Origin: a virus
Strand: one strand, 5' to 3'
Length of the DNA: 64,000 bases
Virus record (IMG/VR): IMGVR_UViG_3300036820_000003
Span: 1 to 64,000 of that record
How positions within the stretch are numbered: position 1 is the stretch's first letter; every line of letters starts with the position of its first letter. Under the pieces are notes generated by a model, which saw only the letters and a program-made list of their open reading frames with translations, ran no database searches and was not told where the DNA came from. A program made the translations under genes and the position numbers. Below are positions 626-15,360 of this stretch, piece by piece.

Positions 626-645
626 GTGTTTCCTTCTTAATGAAA

Positions 646-693
646 GAGCGTCCCGGCCGCCGTGGGATGGGGTGGAGTCCGGCCGGGACGCTC
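646..693. terminator. Inverted repeat, possible terminator or RNA hairpin between the AAA ATPase and bldC-like genes
   Basis: GAGCGTCCCGGCC (646-658) / GGCCGGGACGCTC (681-693), 13-bp stem. Confidence 0.5.
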
Positions 694-725
694 AACTTCA
701 TGCTACCAGATTGCGCGCAGGGGCG

Positions 726-2246
726 CTACCTGACGGGCGGGGCGACCTCGACGGGCCTCCCCAGGACGGTTGCCCTTTGCAGGACCCGGGCGATGGCGTC
801 CTCGGTGGTGGAGGTCATGTCCGGGACGTGCTCGTGCTTGGCCTCGTTGGAGCCCTCCATCCGCTTCCGCTGCTCCTGGAGGATGGCGGCGGCCTCGATG
901 AGCTCCTTAGTGCCGACCGCGAATGCGCCGTCGCTCACCGACAGCTTGGCCAGGTACGCCGTCCTGGCCGCCTCCGAAGCGAACGCCGGGAGCAGTCCCG
1001 CGAACGCCTCCGCGACTTCCGCGTAGTTGATGTCCACGGTACGCCGGATGTCGGGAATCACCGACTCGATGATCTTGCGATGCGCCTCCGGATCCGGATC
1101 CCCGAACTCGATGACGTGATCGATGCGACCGGGTCGCAGCATCGCCTTGTCGATCTTGTCCAGGAAGTTGGTGGTGGTCAGCAGGATGACCTGGACGCCC
1201 TTGTTGTGGGCGCTGTCGACCGCGTCCAGCAGGCGGCTGACGTCCTGCCGGGACCGCTGGGCCACCAGGTTGTCCAGATCCTCGATGAAGACGACCGCCG
1301 GGGAGTATATCGAGGCGGTGCTGAGAGCGTCGAACGGGTCGTCGTCGGCTCGCACCGTGACGAACGTCCACCCGTTCTCGACCGCCTTCTGCGCGGCGAG
1401 GAGCGCGGCGAGGGACTTGCCGGTCCCGTACTTGCCCGCCAGCAGGATGCCCGACTTGACCTGCACGCCGTCATCCAGCAGGCGCTTGGTCTTCATGATG
1501 GGAGTGAACAGGTGAATGGTCAGCTCGCTCATCACGTCGACCGGGTAGATGATGTCCTCGGCCGCGAAGGAGTACGGATTGACGAACCCGGGGGTCATCT
1601 CGGCGGCCGTGATCATCTTGCCACGGTAGATGCTGTGCTCGCTCAGGAACGTGTCGATGATGGCCCAGAAGCCCTCGATGTGATTCTTGTACTTGCGCGG
1701 GGCCTTGCAGGTGATGTGGGACACCACCCCGAGATCCTCGTGGTAGTTGTAGCCCACGTTGAACTCCGCGTCCAGGGGCTTGAACCCGATCTTGCCCCAC
1801 GGCGCTTCCGTGAACTCGTCAATCCCGGTCTGGACGCTGATGAGCTTGGGCTCGATGTCACCCCAGGCGGTCTTGGTGACCTTGCCGATGCCCTGCCCGC
1901 CGAACACCAGGGCCATCGCCCGGCTGAACGCCACCGCGCCGTCATACGGACGATGCAGAAACGTCCGATTGAATTCGATGACCGATTCCTCGGACTTGGC
2001 GAACTGCCTGAGCTGCTCGATAGCGCCCTGCAGATTGCCCCTCATCCGCTCCGGGAGGACAAGCGCGTCCCCCTCGTAGCGAATGCCGTCCTGACTGGAC
2101 ACCATGCTGCCCAGCTTCTCCATATTGGAGATGATCGCTTCCTTGTCGAGATCCTCCGTGGAGGCTTCGACCTTCGTTTCGGTGATTGGAATTCCCTTCG
2201 CTTCCTTGTTCCTGTCCTTCTTGGCTGCCTTGCCGTTGCTTGCCAT
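726..2246 (-). CDS. Classic-clade AAA+ ATPase (FtsH/Cdc48-like module)
   Basis: Walker A GKYGTGKS, Walker B VVFIEDLD, sensor TTN and second region of homology AMLRPGRID. Confidence 0.9.
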   Translation of the reverse strand: MASNGKAAKKDRNKEAKGIPITETKVEASTEDLDKEAIISNMEKLGSMVSSQDGIRYEGDALVLPERMRGNLQGAIEQLRQFAKSEESVIEFNRTFLHRPYDGAVAFSRAMALVFGGQGIGKVTKTAWGDIEPKLISVQTGIDEFTEAPWGKIGFKPLDAEFNVGYNYHEDLGVVSHITCKAPRKYKNHIEGFWAIIDTFLSEHSIYRGKMITAAEMTPGFVNPYSFAAEDIIYPVDVMSELTIHLFTPIMKTKRLLDDGVQVKSGILLAGKYGTGKSLAALLAAQKAVENGWTFVTVRADDDPFDALSTASIYSPAVVFIEDLDNLVAQRSRQDVSRLLDAVDSAHNKGVQVILLTTTNFLDKIDKAMLRPGRIDHVIEFGDPDPEAHRKIIESVIPDIRRTVDINYAEVAEAFAGLLPAFASEAARTAYLAKLSVSDGAFAVGTKELIEAAAILQEQRKRMEGSNEAKHEHVPDMTSTTEDAIARVLQRATVLGRPVEVAPPVR

Positions 2247-2325
2247 ACGTAAACACTACCGCAAACGAGCTTGCCCCGCGCGGTTTTAGGGCTTCGAAGC
2301 TGGTCGGGGCCACAATGACTGCAAC

Positions 2326-3054
2326 TCAGCGGGGGTTGCCAGGCGCTCCTGAGACTCCTGAATCCGAGCCTCCTCTCGTGCTCGCGGAGTGAATGCGGTT
2401 TGCAGCCGACGCAGACGTCGGGCCGTGCCGGGGGGAAGTGGCAGTTGCTTCATGACCTCGTGAGTTGTCCCGGTTGCTCATCATGGACAGGATGCGGGAC
2501 TCGGAAACCGGAGTCAGGCTCCAGGCGTCCATCCCGACGTGGATTTCGCGCGGAGACGTGCGACGAACGGCGCTGTGCGTGTGCCCGTGCAGGAGGATCG
2601 CCCCCTCATCACGGAGTCGGAACTGGGTGAATCTGTCTTCCCCGGAGTGATCCCCGTCGCCCTTGTACGGGAAGTGGCTGAGCAGAACGATCCGGGATCC
2701 GATGCTCACCTGGGCGAACGGCTGGACGGAGGCGAACACCTCCAGGTACGGTCCGTACTTGTTCCAGGAGTTCTTGTTGCCGGACCACGGGTCGTCGTGA
2801 TTGCCGGTGATCAGGTGCTTGACGCCGTTCATGCGATCGAACAGCCTGAGATTGGCGGATCGATTGCCCATCACCGCGTCCCCGAGCAGGAAAACGATGT
2901 CGAGGGCGGAGACCTCCGCGTTCCAGCGACGGATGATCTCCTCGTCATGCGCTTTGAGATCAGGTCTCTCGTCCGGCTTGAAAAACCCTCGCTTGCCCGC
3001 TAGCAGCAGATGTCCCAGATGCGTGTCCGAGGTGAAGAACCGCTTGACGCTCAT
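2326..3054 (-). CDS. Calcineurin-like metallophosphoesterase
   Basis: Motifs SDTHLGH, LGD, GNHD, LSHFPY, LHGHTH and HVGMDAW. Confidence 0.9.
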   Translation of the reverse strand: MSVKRFFTSDTHLGHLLLAGKRGFFKPDERPDLKAHDEEIIRRWNAEVSALDIVFLLGDAVMGNRSANLRLFDRMNGVKHLITGNHDDPWSGNKNSWNKYGPYLEVFASVQPFAQVSIGSRIVLLSHFPYKGDGDHSGEDRFTQFRLRDEGAILLHGHTHSAVRRTSPREIHVGMDAWSLTPVSESRILSMMSNRDNSRGHEATATSPRHGPTSASAANRIHSASTRGGSDSGVSGAPGNPR

Positions 3055-3340
3055 TCATCCGTTCCTCCTTCCACTTCCGACCGCCGCCCGTCCCCCAGTG
3101 GGCCGGAGGCGGCGGGGTGTAACGCGAGTACCAGTCCAGAACCTCGCTGATATCCCATGCCTTGAAGCCGTCATCATCCAGGTGATGCGGCGCGGGGAAC
3201 CCGTTCCGACGGGTGCGCAGATACCAAGCCCTCACGCCCTGTCGGGAAACCGGCCTAGGCCCGGCGTCGCTAAGACGCCGGGCCAGCTCCGCGTAACCGC
3301 CGTACACAGCGGCTTTGTGTGTAAGTATACCAAGCGCCAT
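2960..3340 (-). CDS. Small HTH DNA-binding protein (AlpA/excisionase-like)
   Basis: GYAELARRLS..VSRQGVRAW..GFPAP..WDISEVLDW; leaderless ATG 6 nt after TACACT. Confidence 0.6.
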   Translation of the reverse strand: MALGILTHKAAVYGGYAELARRLSDAGPRPVSRQGVRAWYLRTRRNGFPAPHHLDDDGFKAWDISEVLDWYSRYTPPPPAHWGTGGGRKWKEERMNERQAVLHLGHASGTSAASGQARVFQAGRET

Positions 3341-3354
3341 GCCTCAAGTGTACA

Positions 3355-3879
3355 CTAGAACGGCAGCTCCGGAGCCGTCGGGTTCGCGTGATGGTGATGC
3401 GCGACTGGAGGCGTCGGGGAAAATGATCCGAACACGCCCATGTCCGAGTCCGGGACGGGACCGGATGCGTGATGGACTACGCCGTCGGTCGGGGGCTTGA
3501 CCGTGTTGATGTCATTGCGATTCGTGCCTTGGAATTCGCGCTGGGTTACCTCAGCGATACACCGGCGATTTTCCAAGTCGTCGGCGATCTTTTCGAGACT
3601 CGGGTTCTTGGCGAGATACTCTCGATCCAGTCCGAACGCCGCGAGCTTGCGGATGAGAAATCCGAGGGCGGCAGGACTTTCTGGAGAAATTACCATGTTG
3701 GTAAACACCTTGGATCCCTCGTTCGGTCCGCCCTCGACTGCTAGAACGAGCTTTAGCATGTCCTTACCACTGCTCGACTGCGTGGCCGTGCACTTGTCCA
3801 CGTACATGTCGTACGTTCCCACCGGCAGGGCGCTGAATCCCTGGTCGTCGGCGGCGGAAAGCCATTCTGACCATTTCAT
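3355..3879 (-). CDS. DUF669-family single-stranded DNA-binding protein
   Basis: FSALPVGTYDMYV..SSSGKDMLKLVLAVEGGPNEG; lies next to a Sak4-like gene. Confidence 0.8.
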   Translation of the reverse strand: MKWSEWLSAADDQGFSALPVGTYDMYVDKCTATQSSSGKDMLKLVLAVEGGPNEGSKVFTNMVISPESPAALGFLIRKLAAFGLDREYLAKNPSLEKIADDLENRRCIAEVTQREFQGTNRNDINTVKPPTDGVVHHASGPVPDSDMGVFGSFSPTPPVAHHHHANPTAPELPF

Positions 3880-3897
3880 GGTGGAAATTGTAATCTC

Positions 3898-4491
3898 CTA
3901 CCTCTCCTGATGCTGGTTCTTGTGCTTGATTTTCCGAGCATGCTCGGAGGTGTAGATGACCCGATGAGCTTTCTCATCATACCACCAGTGACACTGTCTG
4001 CACATTGGCCGAAAGTGGTTAAGCGGATCGGTCCCGTCCGTGCCATGCGTCCAAGCCCAGTCCTTTGCGGGACCCTCGCACATGATACAGTCGTATTCGG
4101 AGGCACTTCCCCGCTTATGACGAACATGATAGTGAACGCTCCAGTACGTCACCTCTTGGCTGTGCTTGCCGCAGGTGCATCCAGGCTCACATTTCTTCAT
4201 GTTCTTGAACCCGCATGTACAATCTGGACTGCACTGATGACGCGGCCGAGGGCCGATTCCGCGAGTAGAGCACGACCGACTGCAGTATTGTCTTGCTAGG
4301 TATACCTTGAGAGAATCTTTGACCCGCTTTTTGATAGGTCCACCGCAGTAATCACAAGTGTTACCGCTGAACTGCCTGTCCCAGAACTCTTTCTTGCACT
4401 CCCGACTACAGAACTCCTGCCGTTCATATGGTCCTTGCCTCTGATTTTCACGGCGTCCGAAGTCTTTTCCGCATCCTTTACACGCTTTCAC
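3898..4491 (-). CDS. HNH-type homing endonuclease with Cys-rich repeats
   Basis: CxxC..FCSxxC repeats, then YWSVHYHVRHKRGSASEYDCIMC..WAW..FRPMCRQCHWWYD. Confidence 0.7.
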   Translation of the reverse strand: MKACKGCGKDFGRRENQRQGPYERQEFCSRECKKEFWDRQFSGNTCDYCGGPIKKRVKDSLKVYLARQYCSRSCSTRGIGPRPRHQCSPDCTCGFKNMKKCEPGCTCGKHSQEVTYWSVHYHVRHKRGSASEYDCIMCEGPAKDWAWTHGTDGTDPLNHFRPMCRQCHWWYDEKAHRVIYTSEHARKIKHKNQHQER

Positions 4492-5215
4492 TGCCCCGGA
4501 TCCTCTCGATCATCCGACTGATGACCTCTGTGTCCCCATCCGGAACATCTACGTAAGTTCCGAGTTTACCTCCGACACGCTCCCCCGTCTCGTAGCCGGG
4601 AGCTGATCCGATGTAAAGTCTCCGGAACGAAATGCCTTCTTCCGTGACTCCCTGAGCTAGATATCCGACTATGTCCACGAAGTATGGCATCGTCGTCGCT
4701 AGTCGACCCTGCATGAACGGGTACCAGCTCCCGCCGTCGGGGCGTTGTGCGGCCATCGCGATGAACACCACCGCGTCCATCGGACGAATCGGATTGGTGA
4801 TGAGATCCCGGAACTTGCGAATCATATCCGATCCGATACGCAGCACGTCACCCCACTGCTGGACCTTGAGCTGCTGAGTGCCCGCAAGATCATCTATAAT
4901 TCTTTGCTGGCACTCTGAGATCGAGTCGATGATCACACTACGGAACGGGTGCTTGCCGGAGTTCAGCCACTCGAACGTCTTGGTCACGTCTTTGAACGAC
5001 CTGACCGGAACGATTGCGGTTTCCCATGAGCCATCAGCCTCGGGCGGCCCGCTTTTCGTCGGTTCCCACAGGATCTTCTTACTGGGGGTGAAGCGGCTGC
5101 CCGCCTCCGCGTCGAGCACCACCCGTGGAGCTGGGGTCGTGTCCCCGAGCCAGGATTTCCCCTGCTTCGGGTGGGAAAACACGATCATGTTGAGGCCGTA
5201 ATGCACGTCGGTCAT
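4478..5215 (-). CDS. AAA_24 / Sak4-like ssDNA-annealing ATPase
   Basis: Start placed at ATG 5215 (RBS GAAGGAGG). SHPKQGKS Walker A, VIIDSISE Walker B, QQWG and FIA motifs. Confidence 0.8.
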   Translation of the reverse strand: MTDVHYGLNMIVFSHPKQGKSWLGDTTPAPRVVLDAEAGSRFTPSKKILWEPTKSGPPEADGSWETAIVPVRSFKDVTKTFEWLNSGKHPFRSVIIDSISECQQRIIDDLAGTQQLKVQQWGDVLRIGSDMIRKFRDLITNPIRPMDAVVFIAMAAQRPDGGSWYPFMQGRLATTMPYFVDIVGYLAQGVTEEGISFRRLYIGSAPGYETGERVGGKLGTYVDVPDGDTEVISRMIERIRGSESV

Positions 5216-5308
5216 TCCTTGCCTCCTTCGCTGACCTGATAAGCATACTCCGGTCGGCGGGGAAGCGCAACTCCTTGTCCTACTCAGGTTCCCGTGGTAC
5301 ACTGAGGT

Positions 5309-5767
5309 GTGAGCGATGAAGGCGGAGCCGCCCTGTGGCTCGACCCCGGCGGCACGACCGGCATGGCCGCGTGGTTCTTCGAGACCGGCGAGTTTCGCAG
5401 CTGGCAGGAGGACTTCAAGGGAACCGGAGCGCGCATCGAGTCGCTGGCGTTTCACGTGAAACATCTGTCGATCGGCTACGAGCAATACAACATATCGCCT
5501 GGCCGCTACGTCCGGCACGACGGCTCGTCGCTGATGGTGATCGGCATGACCCGCTGGCTCGCGCTCGTGCACGGGGCCTCGATGCTTCCGTCACAGCCCC
5601 CGTCGGCCCGCAACCTGGGACTCAAGCATCTTAAAGTTCTCGGCTGGCACCGACCCGGACTCGGTCACGCAAATGACGCAGCAGCTCATTTGGCATCGTG
5701 GGCCATTTCAAATGATCTTCTACCCGAGGAACTGAAGGAGCGACTGCGTGGCAACAGCAGGGCTTGA
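5309..5767 (+). CDS. RuvC-like Holliday junction resolvase
   Basis: LDPGGTTG, IGYEQY and HANDAAAH acidic motifs. Confidence 0.7.
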   Translation: MSDEGGAALWLDPGGTTGMAAWFFETGEFRSWQEDFKGTGARIESLAFHVKHLSIGYEQYNISPGRYVRHDGSSLMVIGMTRWLALVHGASMLPSQPPSARNLGLKHLKVLGWHRPGLGHANDAAAHLASWAISNDLLPEELKERLRGNSRA

Positions 5768-7514
5768 CGGCGACTGGATCAGCCTGGACTGCAGCTACAG
5801 TCAGAGGGATCTCGCACTCCAAATCCCGGGCGGTCGCTGGTCGAAGGAGTCCCAGCTATGGAACATGCCCCGAACCTGGGCCGCATGTTTGCAGCTACGC
5901 GGACTGTTCGGCTCGGATCTGGAGATGACCGAAGAGCTGCGGGAGTGGGCCGCCGAGCTGCGCGAGCAGCGGATTGACCCCGCGCTCCATTTGCGTGAAC
6001 AGCTAGTGTCCGGCGAGTTCCTGTCCCCCGTCGAGGAGTGCCTCCGGAAAATCGAGGACGGCTCGGGGTTGCGGCTCAAGGAGTTCCAGGTGGCGGACGT
6101 GGAATTCCTCGCCCTGTGCGGACAGGCTCTGCTCGCTAACCAGCCGGGCACGGGGAAGACGGCGGTCACCATCCGCACGCTCCAGGTGCTGAGCCGGATG
6201 GGGCTGGAGCCCTTCCCGACGCTGATCGTGTGCCCGAACAGCCTCAAGAACACGGTGTGGGCGCAGGAACTGGCCCGCTGGGCACCCGAGCTGACGCTCA
6301 CCGTCGTCGGAGGGACGGCGGGAGCCCGTCGCAAGCAGATCCTTACCGAGACTGACGTGACCGTCATCAACTACGAGAGTCTCCGACTGCACACGCGGGA
6401 GGAAGGCTACGGGACCATCCGGCTGAGTGACAAGTCGAAGGAGCGGAAGGAACTCAACGCCCGGGGATTCCGAACCGTCGTGTGCGACGAGGCGCATCGG
6501 ATGCGCAACCACGACACCGCCCTCACTCGCTCGGCCTGGGCGGTACTGCACGAGGCGGAGTACCGGTTCCTGCTGACGGGGACGCCGGTGAACAACCACT
6601 GCGGGGATCTGTGGGGGCTGATGCACGGGATCCTCCCCGACTGGCACCCTCGCTACACACGGTATCTAAGCCGCTACGGATTGCTAGGTTACAACTGGTT
6701 CGGGGGGACCGAGGTGCTGGGACTCCGGCCTGAGACTGCGGAGGAGTTCCGGGCGATCACCGAGCCGACTTATCGAAGAGTGCTCAAGACCGCCGTCCTC
6801 CCGCAGCTCCCCCCGAAGCTGCCGCCGTCCATCCGCGAGACCCCGATGTCGCCCAAGCAGGCGAAGGCGTACGCTCAGATGGAGGCGAACCTGCTGACGG
6901 TGCTGGACGACGGGGAGATCCTCGCCGCGCCCTCCGCACTCGCGCAGCTGACCCGTCTGCTGCAGTTCGCAGCCGCCGACGCGATGGTGGACGAGAAGGG
7001 CGAGGTGCAGTTGAAATCGCCCTCGTCGAAGGTCGATGACCTGCTGGAGTTCCTCGGGGAGATGGACGACGACGAGCCGCTGGTCGTCGCGGCGGTCAGC
7101 CGGAAGCTGATCGAGCTGGCGGCCGGGAAGCTGAAGGAAAAGGGCGTGAGGTACGGCCTGGTGACCGGGGCTGTCTCGACGGTCGAGCGGGCGAAGGCGG
7201 TGGCGGACTTCCAGGACGGTCGGTCGCGGGTGATCCTGCTGACGCTGGGTGCGGGCGCGGAGGGGCTGACCCTGACCCGAGCCAGTTGCATGCTGTTCAT
7301 GCAGCGCTCGTGGAGTCCGCTCGAAAACGAGCAGGCGGCTGACCGGATCCATCGAATTGGATCCGAAGTACACGAATCCATCCGATTCGTGTACCAGGTG
7401 ACACCAGGGACGGTGGAGAGTCGTGTCCGCGATGTGCTGGAGGCGAAGGAAGGTCGCATTCAGGAGATCTGGCATGACCGCGACGCGCTGAGGAGGCTGC
7501 TGGGAAATGGATGA
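5748..7514 (+). CDS. SNF2-family helicase
   Basis: QPGTGKT, VCPNSL, DEAH, LTGTPV, AGAEGLTLT and QAADRIHRIG. Confidence 0.92.
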   Translation: MATAGLDGDWISLDCSYSQRDLALQIPGGRWSKESQLWNMPRTWAACLQLRGLFGSDLEMTEELREWAAELREQRIDPALHLREQLVSGEFLSPVEECLRKIEDGSGLRLKEFQVADVEFLALCGQALLANQPGTGKTAVTIRTLQVLSRMGLEPFPTLIVCPNSLKNTVWAQELARWAPELTLTVVGGTAGARRKQILTETDVTVINYESLRLHTREEGYGTIRLSDKSKERKELNARGFRTVVCDEAHRMRNHDTALTRSAWAVLHEAEYRFLLTGTPVNNHCGDLWGLMHGILPDWHPRYTRYLSRYGLLGYNWFGGTEVLGLRPETAEEFRAITEPTYRRVLKTAVLPQLPPKLPPSIRETPMSPKQAKAYAQMEANLLTVLDDGEILAAPSALAQLTRLLQFAAADAMVDEKGEVQLKSPSSKVDDLLEFLGEMDDDEPLVVAAVSRKLIELAAGKLKEKGVRYGLVTGAVSTVERAKAVADFQDGRSRVILLTLGAGAEGLTLTRASCMLFMQRSWSPLENEQAADRIHRIGSEVHESIRFVYQVTPGTVESRVRDVLEAKEGRIQEIWHDRDALRRLLGNG

Positions 7515-7857
7515 CGACAGGCCGAATCCGGGGCTGCACCCCTTTGACTTGCAGGCTCCCGTCAAAATCCTGTATCCGCAGTACACGTTGCTCGGACGGG
7601 GACCGAAGATCGATCGGCTGCAACTGGGCCAGACGGCGGACACTGCTACCTTCGAACGGTTCAGCTACCCTGACGGGACCGTCGTGTTCCGGATCGAGGT
7701 CCCGTGTGACAGGGGTCATTGCTACACCTGCGAGTGCAGCACCGGTCATTACATAGATATGTCATTCGACCAGCTCATTGCAATGCGAGCGCTACTGGGA
7801 GTCGTCAATGGTGTGCAGGGAATGTCGTACAAGGAAGCACGAGGAATGCCGTGGTAG
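7507..7857 (+). CDS. Hypothetical protein
   Basis: Translationally coupled to the helicase. Confidence 0.55.
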   Translation: MDDDRPNPGLHPFDLQAPVKILYPQYTLLGRGPKIDRLQLGQTADTATFERFSYPDGTVVFRIEVPCDRGHCYTCECSTGHYIDMSFDQLIAMRALLGVVNGVQGMSYKEARGMPW

Positions 7858-7904
7858 TTCGTGGTGCGACTGCCAGCACATGCCTGTCAGGGAGGATTCC
7901 CCGA

Positions 7905-8441
7905 TTGAGATTCGCTTACGCTGACCCGCCCTATCTCGGCAAGGGCAGGAAGTTCTATTCCGAGCACCCCGACGCCGCTGAATGGGATGATCCAGCGACG
8001 CATGTCAAGCTAGTTGACCGGCTGTGCCAGGAGTTCCCTGACGGCTGGGCACTGTCCGCGTCGACACCCTCGCTAAGGGTCCTGCTGCCCGCATGCCCGA
8101 CGGATGTCCGCATCGCGGCTTGGGTGAAGCCGTTCTGCATCTTCAAGAAAGGCGTCCGTCCCGCCTACGCCTGGGAGCCGGTGCTATTCTGCGGAGGACG
8201 CAACAAGAATCACCCTCCGCCGCTCAAAGGCGGGAGGCAGACCACTCCGAAAGACTACATCGCAGAGGTGATCACCCTGCGGAGGGGTCTGGTGGGAGCT
8301 AAGCCCGAGAAGGTCTGCCGCTGGGTGCTGGACCTGCTCAACGTCCAGCCAGGGGACGAGGTTGTGGACTTGTTTCCCGGAACCGGCGCGATGAGCCGGG
8401 TGATCAGCGAGGTGTGCTCAGATGACGCTGACCGCACTTGA
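7905..8441 (+). CDS. Amino-DNA methyltransferase-like protein (N6A/N4C)
   Basis: TTG start at 7905 after GGAGG. YADPPY motif, WVKP, and C-terminal EVVDLFPGTG SAM-binding loop. Confidence 0.75.
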   Translation: MRFAYADPPYLGKGRKFYSEHPDAAEWDDPATHVKLVDRLCQEFPDGWALSASTPSLRVLLPACPTDVRIAAWVKPFCIFKKGVRPAYAWEPVLFCGGRNKNHPPPLKGGRQTTPKDYIAEVITLRRGLVGAKPEKVCRWVLDLLNVQPGDEVVDLFPGTGAMSRVISEVCSDDADRT

Positions 8442-9093
8442 CCTGTTTTGCGGCGGGGGTGGCTCCGGCCTCGGCCTGATGCGAGCCGGGTTCGACCGGG
8501 TGATCGGCGTCGATGTGTCGGATCACGAGCGATCGTACTCGTCGTGGGGTGGGGAGTTCCACCGGATGGGATGGGAGGAGGGCCTCGCCCGCTTCGCGAT
8601 CGAGGCCGACCTCATCTGGGCGAGCCCGCCGTGTCACCGGTATTCTCGGATGACCAAGTGCATCCCCGGTCTGGCCGACACGAAGCCCGACCTGGTGGGA
8701 CCGGTGCGCGAGGCGCTGAGGGGGTCGGGGGCTCCGTGGATTATCGAGAACGTGGACGGGGCTCCCCTGCGGCACGCGATCATGCTATGCTGCTGGAGCT
8801 TCGGGTACGAAACTTACCGGCACCGGTACTTCGAAACGTCGCATCCCGTGCGCGAGAAGGAGCATCTGCCGCATGTCGTTCGAGGATCGCGCTCGGGTCA
8901 CTACGAGCCAGGGACGTTCATCTCGGTAGCGGGGCACTGCGACCCCATTGCCGAGGCCCGGCGGGTGATGGCGATAGACTGGATGTACCGGGACGAGCTG
9001 GTGGAGGCGATCCCGCCCTATATGGCCGAGTACGTGGGAAGGGAAATGATCCGTGCCGCTCAACTCGGAGTCACCGAGAGCGCAGATACTTAG
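8422..9093 (+). CDS. C5-cytosine DNA methyltransferase (short phage type)
   Basis: LDLFCGGGG, GVD, WASPPC, IIENV and HRYFE. Confidence 0.88.
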   Translation: MTLTALDLFCGGGGSGLGLMRAGFDRVIGVDVSDHERSYSSWGGEFHRMGWEEGLARFAIEADLIWASPPCHRYSRMTKCIPGLADTKPDLVGPVREALRGSGAPWIIENVDGAPLRHAIMLCCWSFGYETYRHRYFETSHPVREKEHLPHVVRGSRSGHYEPGTFISVAGHCDPIAEARRVMAIDWMYRDELVEAIPPYMAEYVGREMIRAAQLGVTESADT

Positions 9094-9352
9094 CGAGGCT
9101 AAGGATCTTATCTGCGGGGACCGCAACGTCCAGTACGGGCCGCCTACGGCTGACTTCGATCGGATTGCGTCGCTGCTGAACGCGCTCGGCTACCAAGCTG
9201 GAGGTGGTCGCCCTATCGAATCGCACGACGTGGCGGTGATCCAGATCTGCCTCAAACTCAGTCGGCTGGCCTGGAAATCGCAGAAGAAAGACAGTTGGAC
9301 TGACATCATCGGGTACGCAGCATGCGGGTGGGAGTGCGTTGACGGTGACTGA
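9053..9352 (+). CDS. DUF6378-like protein
   Basis: GDRNVQYGPP..FDRIASL..HDVA..LKLSR..DSWTDIIGYAACG. Confidence 0.75.
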   Translation: MPLNSESPRAQILSEAKDLICGDRNVQYGPPTADFDRIASLLNALGYQAGGGRPIESHDVAVIQICLKLSRLAWKSQKKDSWTDIIGYAACGWECVDGD

Positions 9353-9833
9353 GCGGCCGGACTGGGACTCGTATTTCTTGGACATCTGCCGGGCGGTGGC
9401 GGCGCGGGCGGACTGCACTCGCCGTCGAGTGGGAGCCGTCATCGTCGATCGGAGCCATCGAATCTTGTCGTGCGGCTACAACGGCGCTCCCTCGGGGGAG
9501 CCAGGCTGCCTGAGTGACGGAGCATGCCCGCGCGGACGGCACTATCTCCTTGGTCGTGAGCTGCGACTGGACGCTTCCACAGGATCGCAGTGCGCCTGCG
9601 GAAACCGATGGCCGTGCCCGAATGCTGTGAGCCCGAGCAGCAGCTATGATTCAGGGCCGGGGACATGTCCGGGGATCCACGCTGAGATGAATGCGATAAT
9701 GTTTTCGAGCTGGGAGCCTCGTCAGGGCGGGGTTATCTACGTGACTTGCGTGCCGTGTCCCGGCTGCCGTAGGATGATCAGGGGGTCGGGGATCAAGCGG
9801 ATCGTGTGGCCGGAAGGAACTGAAATACTCTGA
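9339..9833 (+). CDS. dCMP deaminase (ComEB family)
   Basis: RPDWDSYF, VGAVIV, GYNGAP, HAEMNAI and PCPGC. Confidence 0.93.
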   Translation: MTVTERPDWDSYFLDICRAVAARADCTRRRVGAVIVDRSHRILSCGYNGAPSGEPGCLSDGACPRGRHYLLGRELRLDASTGSQCACGNRWPCPNAVSPSSSYDSGPGTCPGIHAEMNAIMFSSWEPRQGGVIYVTCVPCPGCRRMIRGSGIKRIVWPEGTEIL

Positions 9834-9840
9834 CTGGACG

Positions 9841-9910
9841 TTGCATACCTGCGCGCACTACTGTAGTGTAGCAAGTGTTAGCAGGTAGTCCCGTCCGCTG
9901 GGCGGACGGG
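9841..9910 (+). promoter_or_regulatory. Housekeeping-sigma-type promoter and 5' hairpin of the RAMP-like operon
   Basis: TTGCAT (9841) -17 nt- TAGTGT (9864); perfect 9-bp hairpin CCCGTCCGC-TGG-GCGGACGGG at 9890-9910; RBS AAGGAG before 9931. Confidence 0.6.
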
Positions 9911-9930
9911 GCTCCCCTTACGGCAAGGAG

Positions 9931-10629
9931 ATGCCCATGCCTGAAGAAGAGTCTACCATACAGAATGGCGTGGTAGCCATTAAGCGGATCGCCTCAGAGA
10001 CTATCTACGTTCCGTTGATCGGGACTTCGCCGCTCATCGTTAGCAAATTCTCGCAAAAGGCGAAGCGTCAGATGCTAGACGCACAGCAAGGACGAAAGAG
10101 CCCCCGGGAAGCGCGTAATCCGCAAGCGGAGTACGAGGCTTCCAAGTACGAGGGGAAGGACGACGGCGGGAACACCATCTACGGGTTCCCCGCCTCCGGG
10201 TTCAAGAACGCGACCGTCAGCGCGGCACGGTTCTATGGTCGGGACGTCAAGATGACGGAGCTACGGCAGTTCATCTTCGTCCGTGGACGCTACTTCCCGG
10301 AGGAGAAGCAGCAGTTCGCTGTCATCGAGGGCACCCCGAACATGCGCGAGGACTGCGTCCGCCTCGCCGGAGCCGGACGACCGGCTGATCTGCGTTATCG
10401 CGCGGAGTTCACTCCCTGGCGCGCTATTCTCGTAGTCACCTACGTCGCGTCGCTACTGTCCAAGGACTCAGTGCTGTCCCTCATCGACGCAGCGGGCATG
10501 GGCGTCGGGATCGGTGAGTGGCGACCGGAGCACAAGGGCGAGTTCGGCACGTTCCAGATCGACGAGAAGCGTGACCCGGCCGACATACTGGTTAATGTCA
10601 AGGCGTGCTACGGGGACGCCAATGGCTGA
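9931..10629 (+). CDS. Stand-alone RAMP/Cas7-like protein (Vipr-like candidate effector)
   Basis: IYVPLIGTSPLIV (first RRM strand), YGFPASGFKNAT (cf. RAMP iPgSslKGa), and C-terminal Gly-rich loop AAGMGVGIGEWRPEHKGEFGTF; upstream of the pentamer array. Confidence 0.75.
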   Translation: MPMPEEESTIQNGVVAIKRIASETIYVPLIGTSPLIVSKFSQKAKRQMLDAQQGRKSPREARNPQAEYEASKYEGKDDGGNTIYGFPASGFKNATVSAARFYGRDVKMTELRQFIFVRGRYFPEEKQQFAVIEGTPNMREDCVRLAGAGRPADLRYRAEFTPWRAILVVTYVASLLSKDSVLSLIDAAGMGVGIGEWRPEHKGEFGTFQIDEKRDPADILVNVKACYGDANG

Positions 10630-11044
10630 CCTGCGAACCGAGCTTGCCAAGATTTACGAGCAATACGGCAAGCTCACTGCGGAGATCGTGCTAGAGGAGG
10701 CAACTCCGGTAGACCACCCGCTTCACTCCCAATTCACCTGGGACGACAGCGAGGCAGCTCGCCTGTACCGTCTCGAAGAAGCACGACGACTCATCCGAAT
10801 CGTCCGGGATCCCATCACCACGTCCAGTGGTGAGGTGGCGCGCGTCCGAACGTATCACTCACTCCCTCAGGAGGGTGGTGACCGTGCCTATCAGTCTACG
10901 GATGACATCGTGAAGGACGATATCTCCACGCAGATTCTTCTCCGGCAAGCCGAACGAGAGTACCGTACACTCCTCACGAAGTACGGTCATCTCAAGGAGT
11001 TCATCGAGATGGTGCGGGCGAGCCTGCTCGAAGAAGTAGCTTGA
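10622..11044 (+). CDS. Conserved phage hypothetical protein, accessory gene between the RAMP gene and the array
   Basis: ATG overlaps the RAMP stop region; motif HPLHSQFTWDDSEAARLYRLEEARRLIR. Confidence 0.8.
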   Translation: MADLRTELAKIYEQYGKLTAEIVLEEATPVDHPLHSQFTWDDSEAARLYRLEEARRLIRIVRDPITTSSGEVARVRTYHSLPQEGGDRAYQSTDDIVKDDISTQILLRQAEREYRTLLTKYGHLKEFIEMVRASLLEEVA

Positions 11045-11049
11045 CATAA

Positions 11050-11703
11050 GTGTTACGGTGCGGTACGGCAGTCGAGTCAAGGCACGGAGTGTTCAGGCGG
11101 GGTTAGTTAGGGTTTGTTACGGTGATGTCTGGTGCGTCGGGTGTGGTTGAGCAGTCGAGGTGAGGTGTCGCGAGTCACGTCATGGCTTGGCGGTGTACGT
11201 CAGTCGAGGCGATGTACTGTATCGTGAGGCGCGGGTAGGTCATGTCCGTTCGGGTATGGTCAGGTAAGTCAGTCTAGGTGCGGTTTCGTGGGGTGTCGCG
11301 GGGACAGGTTAGGCTGGGTGCGGCAGTCAAGGCGATGTGCGGTTTCGCGGGGCACAGTCCGTTTTGGCATGGTGTGGCAGTCGCGGTGAAGTGCGGGTTG
11401 GCGGGGTCTGTTACGGTGTAGTCAGTTCGGGCGTGGTATGGTCGGGCAGTCTAGGTTTGGCTAGGTTGGGTCAGTTCGTGCGCGGTTCGGCGTGGCTTGG
11501 CGGTCACGGTACTGCGTGGCGTGGCTAGGCTCGGCAGTTATGGCCCGGCTTGGTAGAGTATGGTATGTCCTGGTGTGGTCAGGTAAGTCAGTTACGGCGG
11601 GGTTTGGCTTATCAAGGCGTGGCCCGTCAAGGTGAGTCATGGCAGTCCAGGTAAGGTGTGTTTGGGTCTGTCATGGTCAGGTCTGGTGGGGCAGTCAAGG
11701 TTC
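11050..11703 (+). repeat. GGY-NN pentamer array of 11 units, putative guide-RNA (vrRNA-like) array
   Basis: Delimiters (G/A)(G/T)C(A/G)GT(C/T)NN at 11067, 11150, 11199, 11268, 11322, 11376, 11445, 11499, 11533, 11587, 11641 and 11690. The last ten spacings are 49, 69, 54, 54, 69, 54, 34, 54, 54 and 49 nt (all 5n+4). Hand count: 58/90 pentamers are exact GGYNN and 87/90 have a pyrimidine at position 3. No credible ORF. Confidence 0.92.
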
Positions 11704-11721
11704 GGATGCTATACTTAGGAC

Positions 11722-13494
11722 ATGAGCGCACTCTCAGATGTCCAGCTCCACCTGATCACCAGTCTCGATGAGGCACTAGAACTCAAGCGCTGGCTGGGAG
11801 AGCGGCGCGAGATTCTCGCAGTGGACACGGAATCGTCCGGCTTGAGTCCCACGAGAGACAAGCTACGTCTTGTCCAAGTGGGAGATCACAAACAAGGCTG
11901 GGCGATTCCGTGGCCTATGTGGGGCGGTTTCGTAAAAGACATCTTCCGTGACTACGACGGACCAATTGTCATGCATAACCTCCCGCATGACTGGCGTTTC
12001 TTGCATCTTCAGGGGGATATCACACTCCCTTGGCATCGTCTAGATGATACATTGCTCATGGCTAGCCTTGACGATCCCGCCCGTCCCCGTGGACTCAAGC
12101 CCCTGTCGAAAAAACTTGTTGACCCCCGGGCGGATTCGGGTCAAAGAGCGCTCGATGATGGAATGAAGGCCGCAGGCTGGACATGGGCTACAGTTCCAGT
12201 AGACTTTGTGCCCTACTGGTATTATTCAGCACTCGACCCGGTGCTAACCGCTCACCTGTGGTCGTATTTGAAACCACGAGTGAGTCGTGATTGCCCTCTA
12301 GCGTACGATCTAGAACTAGGCACTAATCGGGTGTGCACTCAGATGATGCTACGTGGTATTCGACTCGATCGAGAATATGTAGCCGAAGCACAAGACAAAC
12401 TGGAAAAATACTCTAAGGATGCACGCTTCTGGCTTGATGCTGCTTACGGAATTAACAGCGTACTGAGCGCTAAGCAAATCTCAAGTGCTCTATCTTCACA
12501 CGGTGAGCCTCCTACAGCCTGGACTCCCACTGGCTTGCCGAAGATGGACAAGGAGTTTCTAACCCGCATTCGTGACTTCGGTCGGACCTCGGAGGCCCGC
12601 GAGATCGCGCAGCAGGTGCTCGGGGTGCGTCATGCTGAAAAAATGATCAGCTCTTACCTCGAAAATTTCGTTAAGCGCATGGATGACGATGGCATGGTAC
12701 GCTGCAGTATCTGGTCTGCGGAGGCAATCACGGGACGGATGAGTTGTACCGATCCCGCATTGCAGACTCTTTCGCGCGATGATACATTTATCCGTGGAAG
12801 CTTCATCCCCCGCGAGGGAAATGTCTTCATCTCCTGCGACTACTCGCAGGTTGAGGCGCGGCTGGCGGCGCATTATGGTCGCGACCTGGACATGATCCAG
12901 GCATTTCTAGACGCGGACGCGGGCGGGCCGGACTTTTTCACGACGATCGCCTCCCAGATCTACAACCGTCCGATCTCGAAGGCGGACATCGAACGCCAGT
13001 TCACTAAGAACGTCACCTACTGCACCATCTATGGCGGCGGACTCGAAAAGATGGCGAAGACCGGCGGGGTGAGTCCGGAGGTGATGGCCCCGGTGAAGGA
13101 GGGGTTCGACACTCGGTTCCCGGGGTTGCGCCGGTTCATGGCGGAGATCACAGCCGAAGCCAAAGAAACGGGCCGCCGGGAAGGTCGCCCGGCGGTCCGT
13201 TCTGGGATGGGACGCTACCTGCCGGTGGAGGAGCGCAAGGAGTACGTGGCGTCCAACCGGGTGATCCAGGCCGAGGCCGCCGAGGTGCTCAAGCGGGCGA
13301 TGCTCGACCTGGACGCGGCAGGGCTGGGCGAGTACATGATCCTCCCCATCCACGACGAGGTACTGTTCGATGTCCCTCGTGAGGAATCCGAGGAGGCGTG
13401 CAAGCTGATCGGTGATGTGATGACCGTGACGGACCGCTACCTGGTCCCGCTTACCGCTAAGGCCCAGATCCTTGAGGAGCGCTGGGCGAAGTAG
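11722..13494 (+). CDS. polA: DNA polymerase I (family A; 3'-5' exonuclease plus polymerase)
   Basis: VDTES, HNLPHD, CDYSQVEAR (motif A), RQFTKNVTYCTIYGGG (motif B) and IHDE (motif C). Leaderless start 6 nt after TATACT. Confidence 0.95.
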   Translation: MSALSDVQLHLITSLDEALELKRWLGERREILAVDTESSGLSPTRDKLRLVQVGDHKQGWAIPWPMWGGFVKDIFRDYDGPIVMHNLPHDWRFLHLQGDITLPWHRLDDTLLMASLDDPARPRGLKPLSKKLVDPRADSGQRALDDGMKAAGWTWATVPVDFVPYWYYSALDPVLTAHLWSYLKPRVSRDCPLAYDLELGTNRVCTQMMLRGIRLDREYVAEAQDKLEKYSKDARFWLDAAYGINSVLSAKQISSALSSHGEPPTAWTPTGLPKMDKEFLTRIRDFGRTSEAREIAQQVLGVRHAEKMISSYLENFVKRMDDDGMVRCSIWSAEAITGRMSCTDPALQTLSRDDTFIRGSFIPREGNVFISCDYSQVEARLAAHYGRDLDMIQAFLDADAGGPDFFTTIASQIYNRPISKADIERQFTKNVTYCTIYGGGLEKMAKTGGVSPEVMAPVKEGFDTRFPGLRRFMAEITAEAKETGRREGRPAVRSGMGRYLPVEERKEYVASNRVIQAEAAEVLKRAMLDLDAAGLGEYMILPIHDEVLFDVPREESEEACKLIGDVMTVTDRYLVPLTAKAQILEERWAK

Positions 13495-13498
13495 TGCG

Positions 13499-13657
13499 CT
13501 AGGCCGGTGCGACGATCCCCGCGAGGGTGACCGCCGCCAGTCCTCCCGCCAGCAGCCACTCCCAATCCGGAGGTTTAAGGATCACGCTCCCCGCCGCGAG
13601 AGCCGACAGCACGAAGAACGCGAACCCGAGGATCATCAGCAGCTTCGATATAGGCAT
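13499..13657 (-). CDS. Small two-TM membrane protein (52 aa; not in the ORF track)
   Basis: Manual translation MPISKLLMILGFAFFVLSALAAGSVILKPPDWEWLLAGGLAAVTLAGIVAPA. Confidence 0.7.
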   Translation of the reverse strand: MPISKLLMILGFAFFVLSALAAGSVILKPPDWEWLLAGGLAAVTLAGIVAPA

Positions 13658-13741
13658 ACCGTCGCCCTACCCAGCCAAACGCGCCTCACACATCTCGTGT
13701 GAGGCGCGATTAACTCAGGCCATTGCTTCACGTCACAGGAG

Positions 13742-14086
13742 TTAGAGTTCGGAGGCAGAGGGCATCACCTCCTCGTCGTACTCCCACAAGGTCAGCTGCT
13801 CGTGATTCCACACCCTGGAGTGCCGCTGGAAAATCCGGGCCTCGACGGCGGCGTTCAGCTCCCGCCACGTCTCGATCGAAATGGGAATCTCGCGTTCCTG
13901 CCTGGACTCGTAGTACTTGGACTGGTACTGGAACCAGATTACCGGCAGGTCTTGCAGCACTCCGTCCCGCCATATCGAGCTGACAAGGAACCACAGAGCC
14001 TGCGGAGCCCCGCCCTCGTTGTGCTCCTCGACGTACACGATCTGCGGTCCGCCGTCGTCAATCAGTTGCTCGTCGTAGTCATTCAT
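13742..14086 (-). CDS. Hypothetical protein
   Basis: Coupled ORF in the minus-strand operon. Confidence 0.6.
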   Translation of the reverse strand: MNDYDEQLIDDGGPQIVYVEEHNEGGAPQALWFLVSSIWRDGVLQDLPVIWFQYQSKYYESRQEREIPISIETWRELNAAVEARIFQRHSRVWNHEQLTLWEYDEEVMPSASEL

Positions 14087-14378
14087 CTTCGTCCGCTCCT
14101 AGTTGCAGCAGCCTCCGCACCCACGCCAGATCCGGCAGCACAACAGGCCGGGCTGCGGGCGCGTCGGCCGGCTTGAGCAGGATGTCCTGCTTCCACGGCT
14201 CGGCATAATATGCGTTGTCCGAATGCGAGTTGTTGCTTCGCAGGCAGATAGTCCTGTCAGCGCGAATGCCGTTCAGGTACACTCCGCAGAACTGCTTGAC
14301 CTCCTCGATCTCGAAGTTCTTTTCGAGCGGCAAGATCAGATAATCCCTGATTCCGATCTTATACTGATAGACTGTCAT
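14079..14378 (-). CDS. Hypothetical protein
   Basis: RBS GGAAGGAAG; coupled to neighbours. Confidence 0.6.
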   Translation of the reverse strand: MTVYQYKIGIRDYLILPLEKNFEIEEVKQFCGVYLNGIRADRTICLRSNNSHSDNAYYAEPWKQDILLKPADAPAARPVVLPDLAWVRRLLQLGADEDE

Positions 14379-15360
14379 GCTTCCTTCCGAATTCCGTCAG
14401 AATCTCATCGATTGCACGGTCTGCGTATCTCGCGTACGGATCTACCTGCACGTAGTTGCCTCGCATGGCATCCTCGGCCCGGGATCCGTCGTCCCACATG
14501 CTGCAGACGGAGCTGAAGGGGCAGTACCACTGGCAGTCGTCACCCTCGACGTACCGTACGACGCTTTGATGATACTCGCCCGCCTCGATTCTCGCCCGCG
14601 CGTCCCGGATCTCGGTCGCGAGCTGTCGCACCCGCAGCCAGGTGGAATTGAGGTCGTGCCGGTTGTAGGCAAACTCCACTACCTGGTAGAACGGCCCCTT
14701 CGCACGCGGCGTTCGTTTTGATCGCAGCAGCATGACGTACTGCCCGCCGTCGGGACGACGGAGATGAGGCGTGTCAAGCGCCTGCAGCGCCTGAATCATG
14801 GTGTAGGTTTTCATCTGCGTGCTGATCGCCAGCCGGTCGGCCTTCGAAAAAGTTCCGACCGTCTTGTAGTCCCGGAAGAACACGGCTCCGTCGTCAAGTC
14901 TACGGACGAGCGCGTCCAGCTTGCAGATGAGCCGGAACTCCCCCCCGTCCGTCATGAACGGGAGGGTCACCGACGTCTCGCGCTCCGTGGCAATCACCTC
15001 GTACCCCGAGTTGTATCCCTCCTCGGCCGCCCAGTCGAGGAACCCCTCCAGCATCGCGAAGGCAAGCTCGCGTTCCTTCAGCAGATCGCCCTCCTCGCCG
15101 GACTCCTCTATCGCCCTGCGATAGATGAAATCGAGAGCGTCGAGTCCGGGTATCCCGTGTCCCTCGTGCGCTTCGAGCGCTAGGTGCAGCCGGGTGCCGA
15201 GGAGCGCGGATCCGGTCACAGGGGCGGTGACCGGATCCCGTCCCCACCTCAGGTACGTCCCCAGGTACCAGCGACGCGGGCAGCGCGCCCACGTCGCCAG
15301 TTCCGAGTGCGATAGAGTCAGAAGGTCATCCTGACTGCGGCCTGCGTTCGAGCTGATCAC
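14359..15360 (-). CDS. Cas4/RecB-like PD-(D/E)XK exonuclease
   Basis: SHSEL..WARCPRRW, GTRLHLALE, KLDALV, RDYKT and C-terminal CQWYCPFSSVC. Confidence 0.88.
   Translation of the reverse strand: MISSNAGRSQDDLLTLSHSELATWARCPRRWYLGTYLRWGRDPVTAPVTGSALLGTRLHLALEAHEGHGIPGLDALDFIYRRAIEESGEEGDLLKERELAFAMLEGFLDWAAEEGYNSGYEVIATERETSVTLPFMTDGGEFRLICKLDALVRRLDDGAVFFRDYKTVGTFSKADRLAISTQMKTYTMIQALQALDTPHLRRPDGGQYVMLLRSKRTPRAKGPFYQVVEFAYNRHDLNSTWLRVRQLATEIRDARARIEAGEYHQSVVRYVEGDDCQWYCPFSSVCSMWDDGSRAEDAMRGNYVQVDPYARYADRAIDEILTEFGRKHDSLSV

What the first reader, a model, noticed from the sequence alone, without database searches (positions are those of the whole stretch)
11067..11698. Strict grammar of the array: pentamers punctuated by a 9-nt register-shifting delimiter
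Seen: 12 delimiters of the GGCAGTCNN type (variants AGCAG, GTCAG, GGCGG, GTT). The ten regular units hold 8, 12, 9, 9, 12, 9, 5, 9, 9 and 8 pentamers, and each delimiter shifts the phase by one base. Positions 1-3 are constrained (58/90 exact GGY, 87/90 Y at position 3) while positions 4-5 vary freely, which suggests selection rather than satellite drift. A 17-nt duplication, TGGTCAGGTAAGTCAGT (11257 and 11576), suggests unit shuffling. Inference: delimiters are processing sites that release 34-69 nt guides.
Basis: seen in the sequence. Interest (0 to 1): 0.85.

Follow-up and report, generated by a model that had tools for sequence, protein, structure and literature searches.

The report
Phage VIPR guide-RNA array
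The odd five-base repeat tract is the guide-RNA array of a VIPR system, a recently described CRISPR-like weapon that phages use against rival mobile elements, so it is a real and well-formed new example of a kind first reported in 2026 rather than a new kind of element.

Summary
Window 11045-11721 is a 677-nt non-coding tract of about 119 NNG(G/T)Y pentamers. The NN positions are nearly random, G3 is 85% and Y5 is 97%. Twelve 4-nt elements (AGTC or AGTT, two variants) each shift the register by one base and cut the tract into units of mostly 9-13 pentamers.

It is a "staggered" VIPR vrRNA array, a kind described in bioRxiv 10.64898/2026.04.26.720920 and two companion preprints.
- The gene just upstream (9931-10629) is a Vipr RAMP. 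Its profile hits PDB 36pp "SUSP1 Vipr protein" at E=2e-12, and its model matches the Cas7/Csm3 fold.
- A conserved accessory gene (10622-11044) sits between it and the array.
- The same grammar recurs in over 40 viral contigs of 38-71% GC.
- All 41 prokaryote loci found through the protein alone carry an adjacent array.
- Related phages of about 130 kb that lack VIPR have dCMP deaminase directly before pol, so the cassette is an insertion.

RNA ends were not tested.

Targets are unknown. One guide matches a conserved DNA-polymerase motif of related phages at 16-18 of 20 positions, with the skipped bases on wobble positions. This is suggestive only.

The parts
9931..10629 (+). vipr gene: 232-aa stand-alone RAMP (Cas7-like) protein, the presumed vrRNA-binding subunit.
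   Evidence: - phrog_4652; no Pfam family.
- A 26-sequence profile hits PDB 36pp_D 'SUSP1 Vipr protein' at E=2.2e-12. hhalign against the phiSUSP1 gene product gives probability 98%.
- The thumb Arg (R157 in RYR) and the G-loop G-x-G-E-W-R-P are invariant or nearly so.
- The AF2 model has pLDDT 87. Its best Foldseek hits are type VII Cas7, Cmr6, Csm3 and Cascade Cas7.
10622..11044 (+). Candidate vap (VIPR accessory) gene: 140 aa, overlapping the vipr stop by 8 nt.
   Evidence: - phrog_15946; no Pfam family.
- Found beside vipr and the array in 27 of 43 array loci, always on the array strand.
- The AF2 model has pLDDT 95: N-terminal helices, a 4-stranded sheet and a 40-residue C-terminal helix.
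- No informative PDB fold match.
- No detectable similarity to phiSUSP1 vap1.
11045..11721 (+). Staggered vrRNA array: the whole intergenic tract, with about 119 NNG(G/T)Y pentamers and 12 register-shifting delimiters.
   Evidence: It is unique in the genome, and no solo units occur elsewhere. No Rfam family matches. No sigma-70-like promoter or intrinsic terminator lies inside it.
11074..11151 (+). Unit 1: 12 pentamers plus an irregular tail with two extra phase slips. It may be decayed or composite.
11152..11205 (+). Unit 2: CAGTC, then 9 pentamers, then AGTC.
11206..11274 (+). Unit 3: 13 pentamers plus AGTC. Its 3' end carries one copy of the 17-nt duplication (11257).
11275..11328 (+). Unit 4: 10 pentamers plus AGTC.
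11329..11382 (+). Unit 5: 10 pentamers plus AGTC.
11383..11451 (+). Unit 6: 13 pentamers plus AGTC. It contains an in-phase CAGTT at 11423, which may be a further boundary.
11452..11505 (+). Unit 7: 10 pentamers plus the variant delimiter GGTC. It contains an in-phase CAGTT at 11472.
11506..11539 (+). Unit 8: 6 pentamers plus AGTT. This is the short unit.
11540..11593 (+). Unit 9: 10 pentamers plus AGTT. It holds the second copy of the 17-nt duplication (11576). This is the guide with a candidate target in the DNA polymerase genes of related phages.
11594..11647 (+). Unit 10: 10 pentamers plus AGTC.
11648..11696 (+). Unit 11: 9 pentamers plus the terminal AGTC.
11722..13494 (+). DNA polymerase I gene (context only). 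The array abuts its ribosome-binding site. The phage's own copy of the site matched by unit 9 lies at 12331-12359.
   Evidence: Pfam DNA_pol_A and the 3'-5' exonuclease domain. The own site scores 15/20.

Best explanation
Window 9931-11721 is a complete VIPR (Viral Interference Programmable Repeat) cassette in an uncultivated, roughly 130-kb phage that probably infects an actinobacterium. It comprises a vipr gene, a small accessory gene and a 'staggered' array of about 11-13 vrRNAs.

**Shown here**
- The protein is a Vipr/RAMP homologue.
- The array has the YNNGG grammar on the same strand.
- Protein and array co-occur across hundreds of kilobases of unrelated DNA.

**Inferred from the published SUSP1 work**
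- The tract is transcribed with vipr-vap and cut at the delimiters. The last pentamer of one unit (NNGGC) and the first of the next (CAGTC) share one base.
- Vipr protomers polymerise one per pentamer along each RNA. They bury GGY and present the NN pairs.
- The filament binds double-stranded DNA whose sequence reads NN-x-NN-x... (the one-base skip rule).
- Binding silences transcription of a competing mobile element.

The targets of this array are not established.
For: **Vipr homology.**
- The profile hits the solved SUSP1 Vipr at E=2.2e-12 and hhalign probability 98%.
- The alignment runs through the thumb Arg and the G-loop D/E-W-R that contact G1, G2 and Y3 in the cryo-EM structures (10.64898/2026.04.26.720927).
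- The AF2 model matches Cas7-family RAMPs.

**Array grammar.** It is identical to the published YNNGG definition: 9-16 repeats, hypervariable NN, and tolerance of internal degeneracy.

**Array to protein.** A delimiter-pair pattern found at least 119 viral contigs. 42 of them have such arrays, and 26 of those carry both genes beside the array on the array strand; the window's own locus makes it 27 of 43. Many of the rest are contig ends.

**Protein to array.** All 41 bacterial or archaeal genome loci found through the protein alone have an adjacent same-strand pentamer array. So do the cultured phages UmaThurman and Saal.

**Gene order.** vipr-vap-array is the order in phiSUSP1.

**Modularity.** L088 and L185 differ by whole units.

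**Self-targeting.** No self-target exceeds the shuffled-guide null by more than one match, in line with the absence of self-targets reported for VIPR.

**Mobility.** The cassette is absent from syntenic related phages L268, L269 and L005, consistent with a mobile accessory module.
Against: - No RNA, processing or binding data exist for this locus.
- Exact one-base-skip matches were not found for five guides in IMG/VR or in GTDB genomes.
- About a third of the pentamers depart from GGY. Unit 1 is irregular, so some units may be decayed.
- The accessory protein cannot be equated with any named vap.
- The residue matching SUSP1 H17 is Ser in this protein.
- The VIPR type (I-VII) could not be assigned from the text that is available.
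Confidence: 0.92

Rival explanations
1. The array is a decoy or 'solo' vrRNA set whose main role is to redirect or saturate the Vipr machinery of other phages, rather than to guide the phage's own Vipr.
For: Satellites and SUSP1-family phages carry stand-alone vrRNAs that redirect foreign VIPR systems (10.64898/2026.10.15.759431, abstract). No targets were found for most guides here.
Against: An intact vipr gene with conserved RNA-contact residues sits 415 nt upstream on the same strand. This is the canonical complete locus, not a VIPR-null one.
Confidence: 0.04
2. The tract is a replication element acting as DNA next to the polymerase gene: an origin, a set of iterons, or a G-rich R-loop or G-quadruplex former. 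It would be bound by an initiator that reads GGY pentamers, much as SV40 T antigen reads GAGGC.
For: It lies inside the replication module, between dCMP deaminase and DNA pol I. It has strong G/T strand asymmetry.
Against: - Related phages with the same replication module lack it entirely.
- In other phages and prophages the array travels with vipr, not with replication genes.
- The orientation is always co-directional with vipr, as expected for a transcript.
Confidence: 0.02
3. It is a degenerate microsatellite produced by slippage, with no function.
For: It is a short-period repeat with many imperfect copies. Tandem Repeats Finder barely detects it.
Against: - Slippage does not keep three positions fixed while randomising two.
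- Slippage does not conserve an AGTC register shift every 9-13 units across phages of 38-71% GC.
- Slippage does not explain the obligate linkage to a RAMP gene (41/41).
Confidence: 0.01

Closest known systems
VIPR systems with 'staggered' vrRNA arrays (bioRxiv 10.64898/2026.04.26.720920, Fig. S18)
   Same: - A stand-alone Vipr RAMP gene, a small accessory gene and an array of YNNGG repeats.
- Adjacent vrRNAs share one base, so each boundary shifts the register by one.
- The system is phage-borne.
   Different: - The figure itself is not available to me. I cannot say whether the conserved CAGTC boundary, the 9-13-pentamer unit size or this Vipr clade are the ones shown there.
- The preprint reports no small-RNA confirmation of staggered arrays.
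- This instance sits in a 130-kb, probably lytic-type genome, between dCMP deaminase and DNA pol I.
Type II VIPR of Escherichia phage phiSUSP1 (KT454805; PDB 36pp)
   Same: - Homologous Vipr: the C-terminal 70 residues align at 25% identity, and the G-loop and thumb are conserved.
- Same gene order, vipr-vap-array.
- GGY/NN code.
   Different: - SUSP1 vrRNAs are about 100 nt, each with an invariant 3' tail that folds into a pseudoknot. Here the units are 49-69 nt and are separated only by a 4-nt element.
- The accessory protein shows no detectable similarity to vap1.
Class 1 CRISPR-Cas (Cas7 backbone filaments on crRNA)
   Same: - The RAMP fold.
- One protomer per short RNA segment.
- Periodic base flipping.
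- An array of units that are gained and lost as cassettes.
   Different: - No 25-40-nt repeats and no contiguous spacers.
- No cas1/cas2 or other cas genes.
- The period is 5 rather than 6.
- The guide is non-contiguous.
- It is encoded by a virus.
TRAP-type ring proteins binding (G/U)AG triplets at 5-nt spacing
   Same: A 5-nt period made of a fixed triplet and two free bases on single-stranded RNA.
   Different: This is an analogy recalled from memory only. There is no TRAP-like gene here, and the partner protein is a RAMP.

Membership tests
VIPR system | A Vipr protein: a stand-alone RAMP with an RRM core, a glycine-rich loop and a thumb | tested here: met
   PDB 36pp SUSP1 Vipr at E=2.2e-12. 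hhalign probability 98%. Foldseek top hits are Cas7, Csm3 and Cmr6. The G-x-G-E-W-R-P loop and the thumb R157 are conserved.
VIPR system | vrRNA region of tandem YNNGG repeats (at least 4, typically 9-16 per RNA) with conserved GGY and hypervariable NN | tested here: met
   119 pentamers. NN entropy is 1.93-1.98 bits, against 0.67-1.19 bits for the GGY positions. Units hold 6-13 pentamers. The same holds in 3,925 pentamers from other arrays.
VIPR system | The array lies in the intergenic DNA flanking vipr, on the same strand | tested here: met
   The array starts 415 nt after the vipr stop, on the + strand. The linkage is 41/41 in loci found through the protein alone.
VIPR system | An accompanying vap accessory gene | tested here: inconclusive
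   A conserved 140-aa gene lies between vipr and the array. It has no similarity to SUSP1 vap1 and no informative fold match. It cannot be assigned to vap1-6.
VIPR system | The array is expressed and processed, and the vrRNAs co-purify with Vipr | not testable with these tools
VIPR system | Guides match natural DNA targets by the one-base skip rule (at least 80% NN match), with no self-targets | tested here: inconclusive
   - No exact matches for five guides.
- One guide reaches 90%, 85% and 80% on pol genes of related phages, against 75% on the phage's own pol. The per-guide p is about 0.012.
- Own-genome best hits exceed the shuffled-guide null by at most one match and are not significant.
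Staggered VIPR array architecture | Adjacent vrRNAs overlap by 1 nt, so the end of one marks the start of the next | tested here: met
   At each boundary NNGGC and CAGTC share the C. The 4-nt AGTC remainder shifts the register by -1 at all 12 boundaries. This is also the commonest 4-nt register-shifting element in about 40 other arrays, at 219 of 458.
Type II (SUSP1-like) VIPR | Each vrRNA ends in a long invariant 3' tail that forms a pseudoknot, with vap1 as accessory | tested here: not met
   Units are contiguous and there is no tail between them. There is no vap1 similarity.
CRISPR array | Direct repeats of about 25-40 nt alternating with unique spacers of similar length, plus cas adaptation genes | tested here: not met
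   The only conserved element between units is 5-9 nt long. Tandem Repeats Finder finds no such repeats. None of the ten neighbouring ORFs scanned (564-15183) has a Cas family hit.
Any Rfam RNA family | A covariance-model match | tested here: not met
   No match at E<=1 in 10400-12000. vrRNAs are apparently not in Rfam 15.

The most novel reading that the evidence does not exclude
The guide at 11540-11589 is aimed at the codons for the conserved I/V-C-T-x-M-M-L-K-G-I motif of the family-A DNA polymerase of related phages that lack VIPR.

| Site | Match (of 20) |
|---|---|
| G001 / L020 | 18 |
| L269 | 17 |
| L268, L005 | 16 |
| Own pol, immediately downstream of the cassette | 15 |

The skipped bases fall on wobble positions. 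The phage's own pol gene has diverged at two codons (Q and R), which brings it below the published 80% cut-off. On this reading the cassette lets the phage silence the replicative polymerase of close competitors during co-infection while sparing its own copy.
Probability: 0.3. Interest if true: 0.6.

Novelty: new member of a known kind. Interest (0 to 1): 0.42.

Why it matters
VIPR was described only in 2026 and is proposed as the viral ancestor of CRISPR RAMP effectors. Its staggered-array form has, according to the preprint, not been confirmed experimentally.

This locus and the roughly 80 related loci collected here give three things:
- a compact, well-delimited example of about 1.8 kb, with 11-13 units of 49-69 nt and a conserved CAGTC boundary;
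- presence in cultured, tractable hosts (Gordonia terrae phage UmaThurman, Mycobacterium smegmatis phage Saal), where processing and targeting could be tested;
- a concrete candidate target, a rival phage's DNA polymerase.

It also shows that at least one GenBank CDS (UmaThurman gp40) is really a vrRNA array.

Tried and rejected
**Searches that found nothing**
- megablast and blastn of the region against 50,697 phage records gave no match.
- Known phages with the nearest DNA pol (Atuin, GodonK, DSL-LC01) have no array before pol.
- IMG/VR relatives found through pol (80 loci) have no period-5 tract.

It was redone by reference.
A 6-sequence alignment worked.

**Ideas considered before the PDB hit, then dropped**
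- TRAP-like ring-protein binding sites.
- Primase-site arrays (GTC).
- A rho-utilisation tract on the minus strand.
- G-quadruplex or R-loop origin.
- SV40-like GAGGC iterons.
- Chi-like decoys.

None of these explains the obligate linkage to a RAMP gene.

**Accessory protein.** Foldseek against the PDB and VIA-align wide matched only the C-terminal long helix (coiled-coil matches, Z about 5.7). This is uninformative. The ESM Atlas returned only unnamed viral clusters.

**Target searches**
- Exact one-base-skip patterns for the units at 11275, 11329, 11452, 11540 and 11594, and a 9-dinucleotide sub-pattern of 11540, gave zero hits in viral contigs or genome contigs.
- Mismatch-tolerant scans of three whole genomes of related phages found nothing for the other ten guides.
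- The five related genomes G001-G005 gave no Vipr match.

**Not run.** Complex prediction was not used. No binding claim rests on it.

Full report
**What is there**

The window is the first 64 kb of a 129,940-bp IMG/VR virus record with 127-bp terminal repeats. Between a small gene ending at 11044 and the DNA polymerase I gene starting at 11722 lies 677 nt with no ORF over 63 aa. It is 42% G and 27% T. Its lag-5 and lag-10 G autocorrelation (0.33 and 0.32) is unmatched anywhere else in the genome.

Cut at each CAGT, the tract falls into pieces of 83, 49, 69, 54, 31+23, 45+24, 25+63, 54, 54 and 49 nt. Nearly all of these (the bracketed pairs taken as their sums of 54 and 69) are 4 modulo 5.

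A dynamic-programming parse reads it as NNG(G/T)Y pentamers interrupted by 4-nt AGTC/AGTT elements. Equivalently, the last pentamer of a unit (NNGGC) and the first of the next (CAGTC) overlap by one base.

**How the identity was found**

Sequence searches of known phages found nothing. Related phages found through the polymerase lacked the tract.

A pattern made of two delimiters with their first pentamers, spaced 30-58 nt apart, hit at least 119 viral contigs. About 42 of these carry long tracts with the same grammar, in genomes of 38% to 71% GC. Low-GC phages use NNGTT or NNGGT where high-GC ones use NNGGC, but G3, K4, Y5 and the AGTC step are kept.

Clustering all ORFs within 3.5 kb of these arrays gave two families present in 27 loci each. 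Both are always on the array strand, and both include the two genes just upstream of our array, 9931-10629 and 10514/10622-11044.

A profile of the first family hit one solved structure, PDB 36pp 'SUSP1 Vipr protein', at E=2.2e-12. That led to three 2026 preprints on VIPR systems.

**Comparison with the published system**

The discovery preprint (10.64898/2026.04.26.720920) defines VIPR as follows.
- A stand-alone RAMP (Vipr), usually one accessory gene (vap), and vrRNAs of 9-16 YNNGG repeats with hypervariable NN.
- The NN pairs read double-stranded DNA with one skipped base per repeat.
- Binding represses transcription of competing phages or satellites.
- Array architectures include 'staggered arrays with overlapping vrRNAs'. 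These, unlike the ribozyme-interspersed and single-vrRNA forms, were not reported as confirmed by small-RNA sequencing.

The structural preprint (10.64898/2026.04.26.720927) shows one protomer per repeat. G1 is read by H17 and D177, G2 by R138 and W178, and Y3 by R179.

Our protein aligns to SUSP1 Vipr through exactly the thumb Arg (R157) and the G-loop (E196-W197-R198). These are invariant or nearly invariant in the family. The H17 position is Ser here.

The AF2 model (pLDDT 87) independently retrieves Cas7, Csm3 and Cmr6 chains.

The phiSUSP1 locus has the same vipr-vap-array order. Its vap1 is not detectably related to our second gene. Its vrRNAs carry long pseudoknotted tails that ours lack.

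**Independent linkage test**

Searching 185,579 species genomes with a Vipr alignment alone returned 41 loci, from Gordonia, Nonomuraea, Thermoactinospora, sphingomonads, clostridia and a Methanothrix MAG. All 41 have a same-strand pentamer array beside the gene, and several use AGTC steps.

The closest cultured carriers are Gordonia phages UmaThurman, Pipp, ODay and Ecliptus (54-58% Vipr identity), followed by 27 Mycobacterium phage records (Saal, Brocalys and others; 42-43%). In UmaThurman the annotated CDS gp40 is in fact the array. In Saal the array fills the gap before gp51.

**Evolutionary behaviour**

Two genomes of about 131 kb (L268 and L269, with pol 68% and 64% identical) share the SNF2-helicase to pol synteny. 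In L269 dCMP deaminase lies directly before pol. Neither has vipr, the accessory gene or an array. The same is true of L005, L006 and L012. The 1.8-kb cassette is therefore an insertion.

Phages L088 and L185, with almost identical Vipr proteins, share some units letter for letter but differ by whole CAGTC-bounded units. This is direct evidence that the delimiters bound functional modules.

**Targets**

Following the published scan, each unit was converted to NN-x-NN-x and searched.
- The phage's own genome gives nothing more than one match above the shuffled-guide null.
- Exact patterns for five guides gave no hit in IMG/VR or GTDB genomes.
- In the 2.06 Mb of loci held at that point, one guide (11540-11589) scored 18/20 on L020. 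It also matched the same in-frame position of the pol gene in other related phages.

| Site | Match of guide 11540-11589 |
|---|---|
| L020 / G001 | 18/20 |
| L269 | 17/20 |
| L268, L005, L006, L012 | 16/20 |
| Own pol, 12331 | 15/20 |

All skipped bases fall on third codon positions of the conserved I/V-C-T-x-M-M-L-K-G-I motif.

Shuffled guides reached 18 in 7 of 600 trials on the original set. They reached it in 0 of 4,000 trials on the related phage genomes, but that set was chosen after the hit was seen. With 11 guides tested, the family-wise p is about 0.1 before the wobble phasing is counted. I treat this as a lead with odds of about 0.3, not a finding. No other guide hit those genomes.

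**Other checks**
- No Rfam family matches.
- No sigma-70-type promoter or terminator lies in or around the tract, which fits co-transcription with vipr-vap.
- No solo units occur elsewhere in the genome.
- The accessory protein models confidently (pLDDT 95) as helices, a small sheet and a long helix. It has no informative structural neighbour.

**Verdict**

The interpretation, guide RNAs released at the delimiters, agrees with the published VIPR model, but cleavage is untested. This is a new member of a known, very recently described kind.

The scan's own notes had already labelled an overlapping stretch 'VIPR-like'. I saw that only after reaching the same reading.

Noticed in passing
L204:3625-3940 (Gordonia phage UmaThurman NC_031249, record about 33347-33662): The annotated CDS gp40 ('hypothetical protein', 107 aa), directly after the Vipr homologue gp39, is a staggered GGY/NN pentamer array. 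It is probably a mis-annotated vrRNA array. Mycobacterium phage Saal has an array in the 250-nt gap before gp51 (L205:2589-2836).
   Followed up: partly
window 9834-11721 compared with L269:6516-7001 and L268: Related phages of about 131 kb have dCMP deaminase immediately before DNA pol I. The vipr-vap-array cassette is an insertion at that junction in this genome only.
   Followed up: yes
L088 (record 6000-6800, minus strand) compared with L185: Two phages with almost identical Vipr proteins share several array units exactly but differ by three to four whole CAGTC-bounded units. This is cassette-wise gain or loss, like CRISPR spacers.
   Followed up: partly
Genome 64147-65376 (just beyond the window end), and window 32157 and 44848: The 9-mer GCGTAAACA occurs 13 times on the + strand and never on the - strand. 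Seven copies are clustered at 64.1-65.4 kb, where the strand composition flips to A+C-rich. It may be a phage-specific promoter or regulatory motif at a transcription switch point.
   Followed up: no
Genome 64876-64917 (beyond the window): A perfect (CCCGCA)x7 hexamer repeat inside the A+C-rich stretch. If it is coding on the minus strand, it would give a short dipeptide repeat.
   Followed up: no
L266 (Methanothrix sp. MAG, JAABPZ010000073): A Vipr homologue (52% over the N-terminal 60 residues, cut by the contig end) with an upstream AGTC-stepped array in an archaeal MAG. The same array dialect therefore spans bacteria and archaea.
   Followed up: no
window 11423 and 11472: Two in-phase CAGTT pentamers inside units 6 and 7 look like delimiters without the register shift. 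These units may be read as 8+4 and 4+5 pentamers, so the number of vrRNAs could be 13 rather than 11.
   Followed up: no
window 5748-7514 and 9339-9833: The context genes are an SNF2-family helicase and a dCMP deaminase. Together with DNA pol I they form a replication and nucleotide-metabolism block syntenic with Gordonia, Arthrobacter and Microbacterium phages, which suggests an actinobacterial host.
   Followed up: partly
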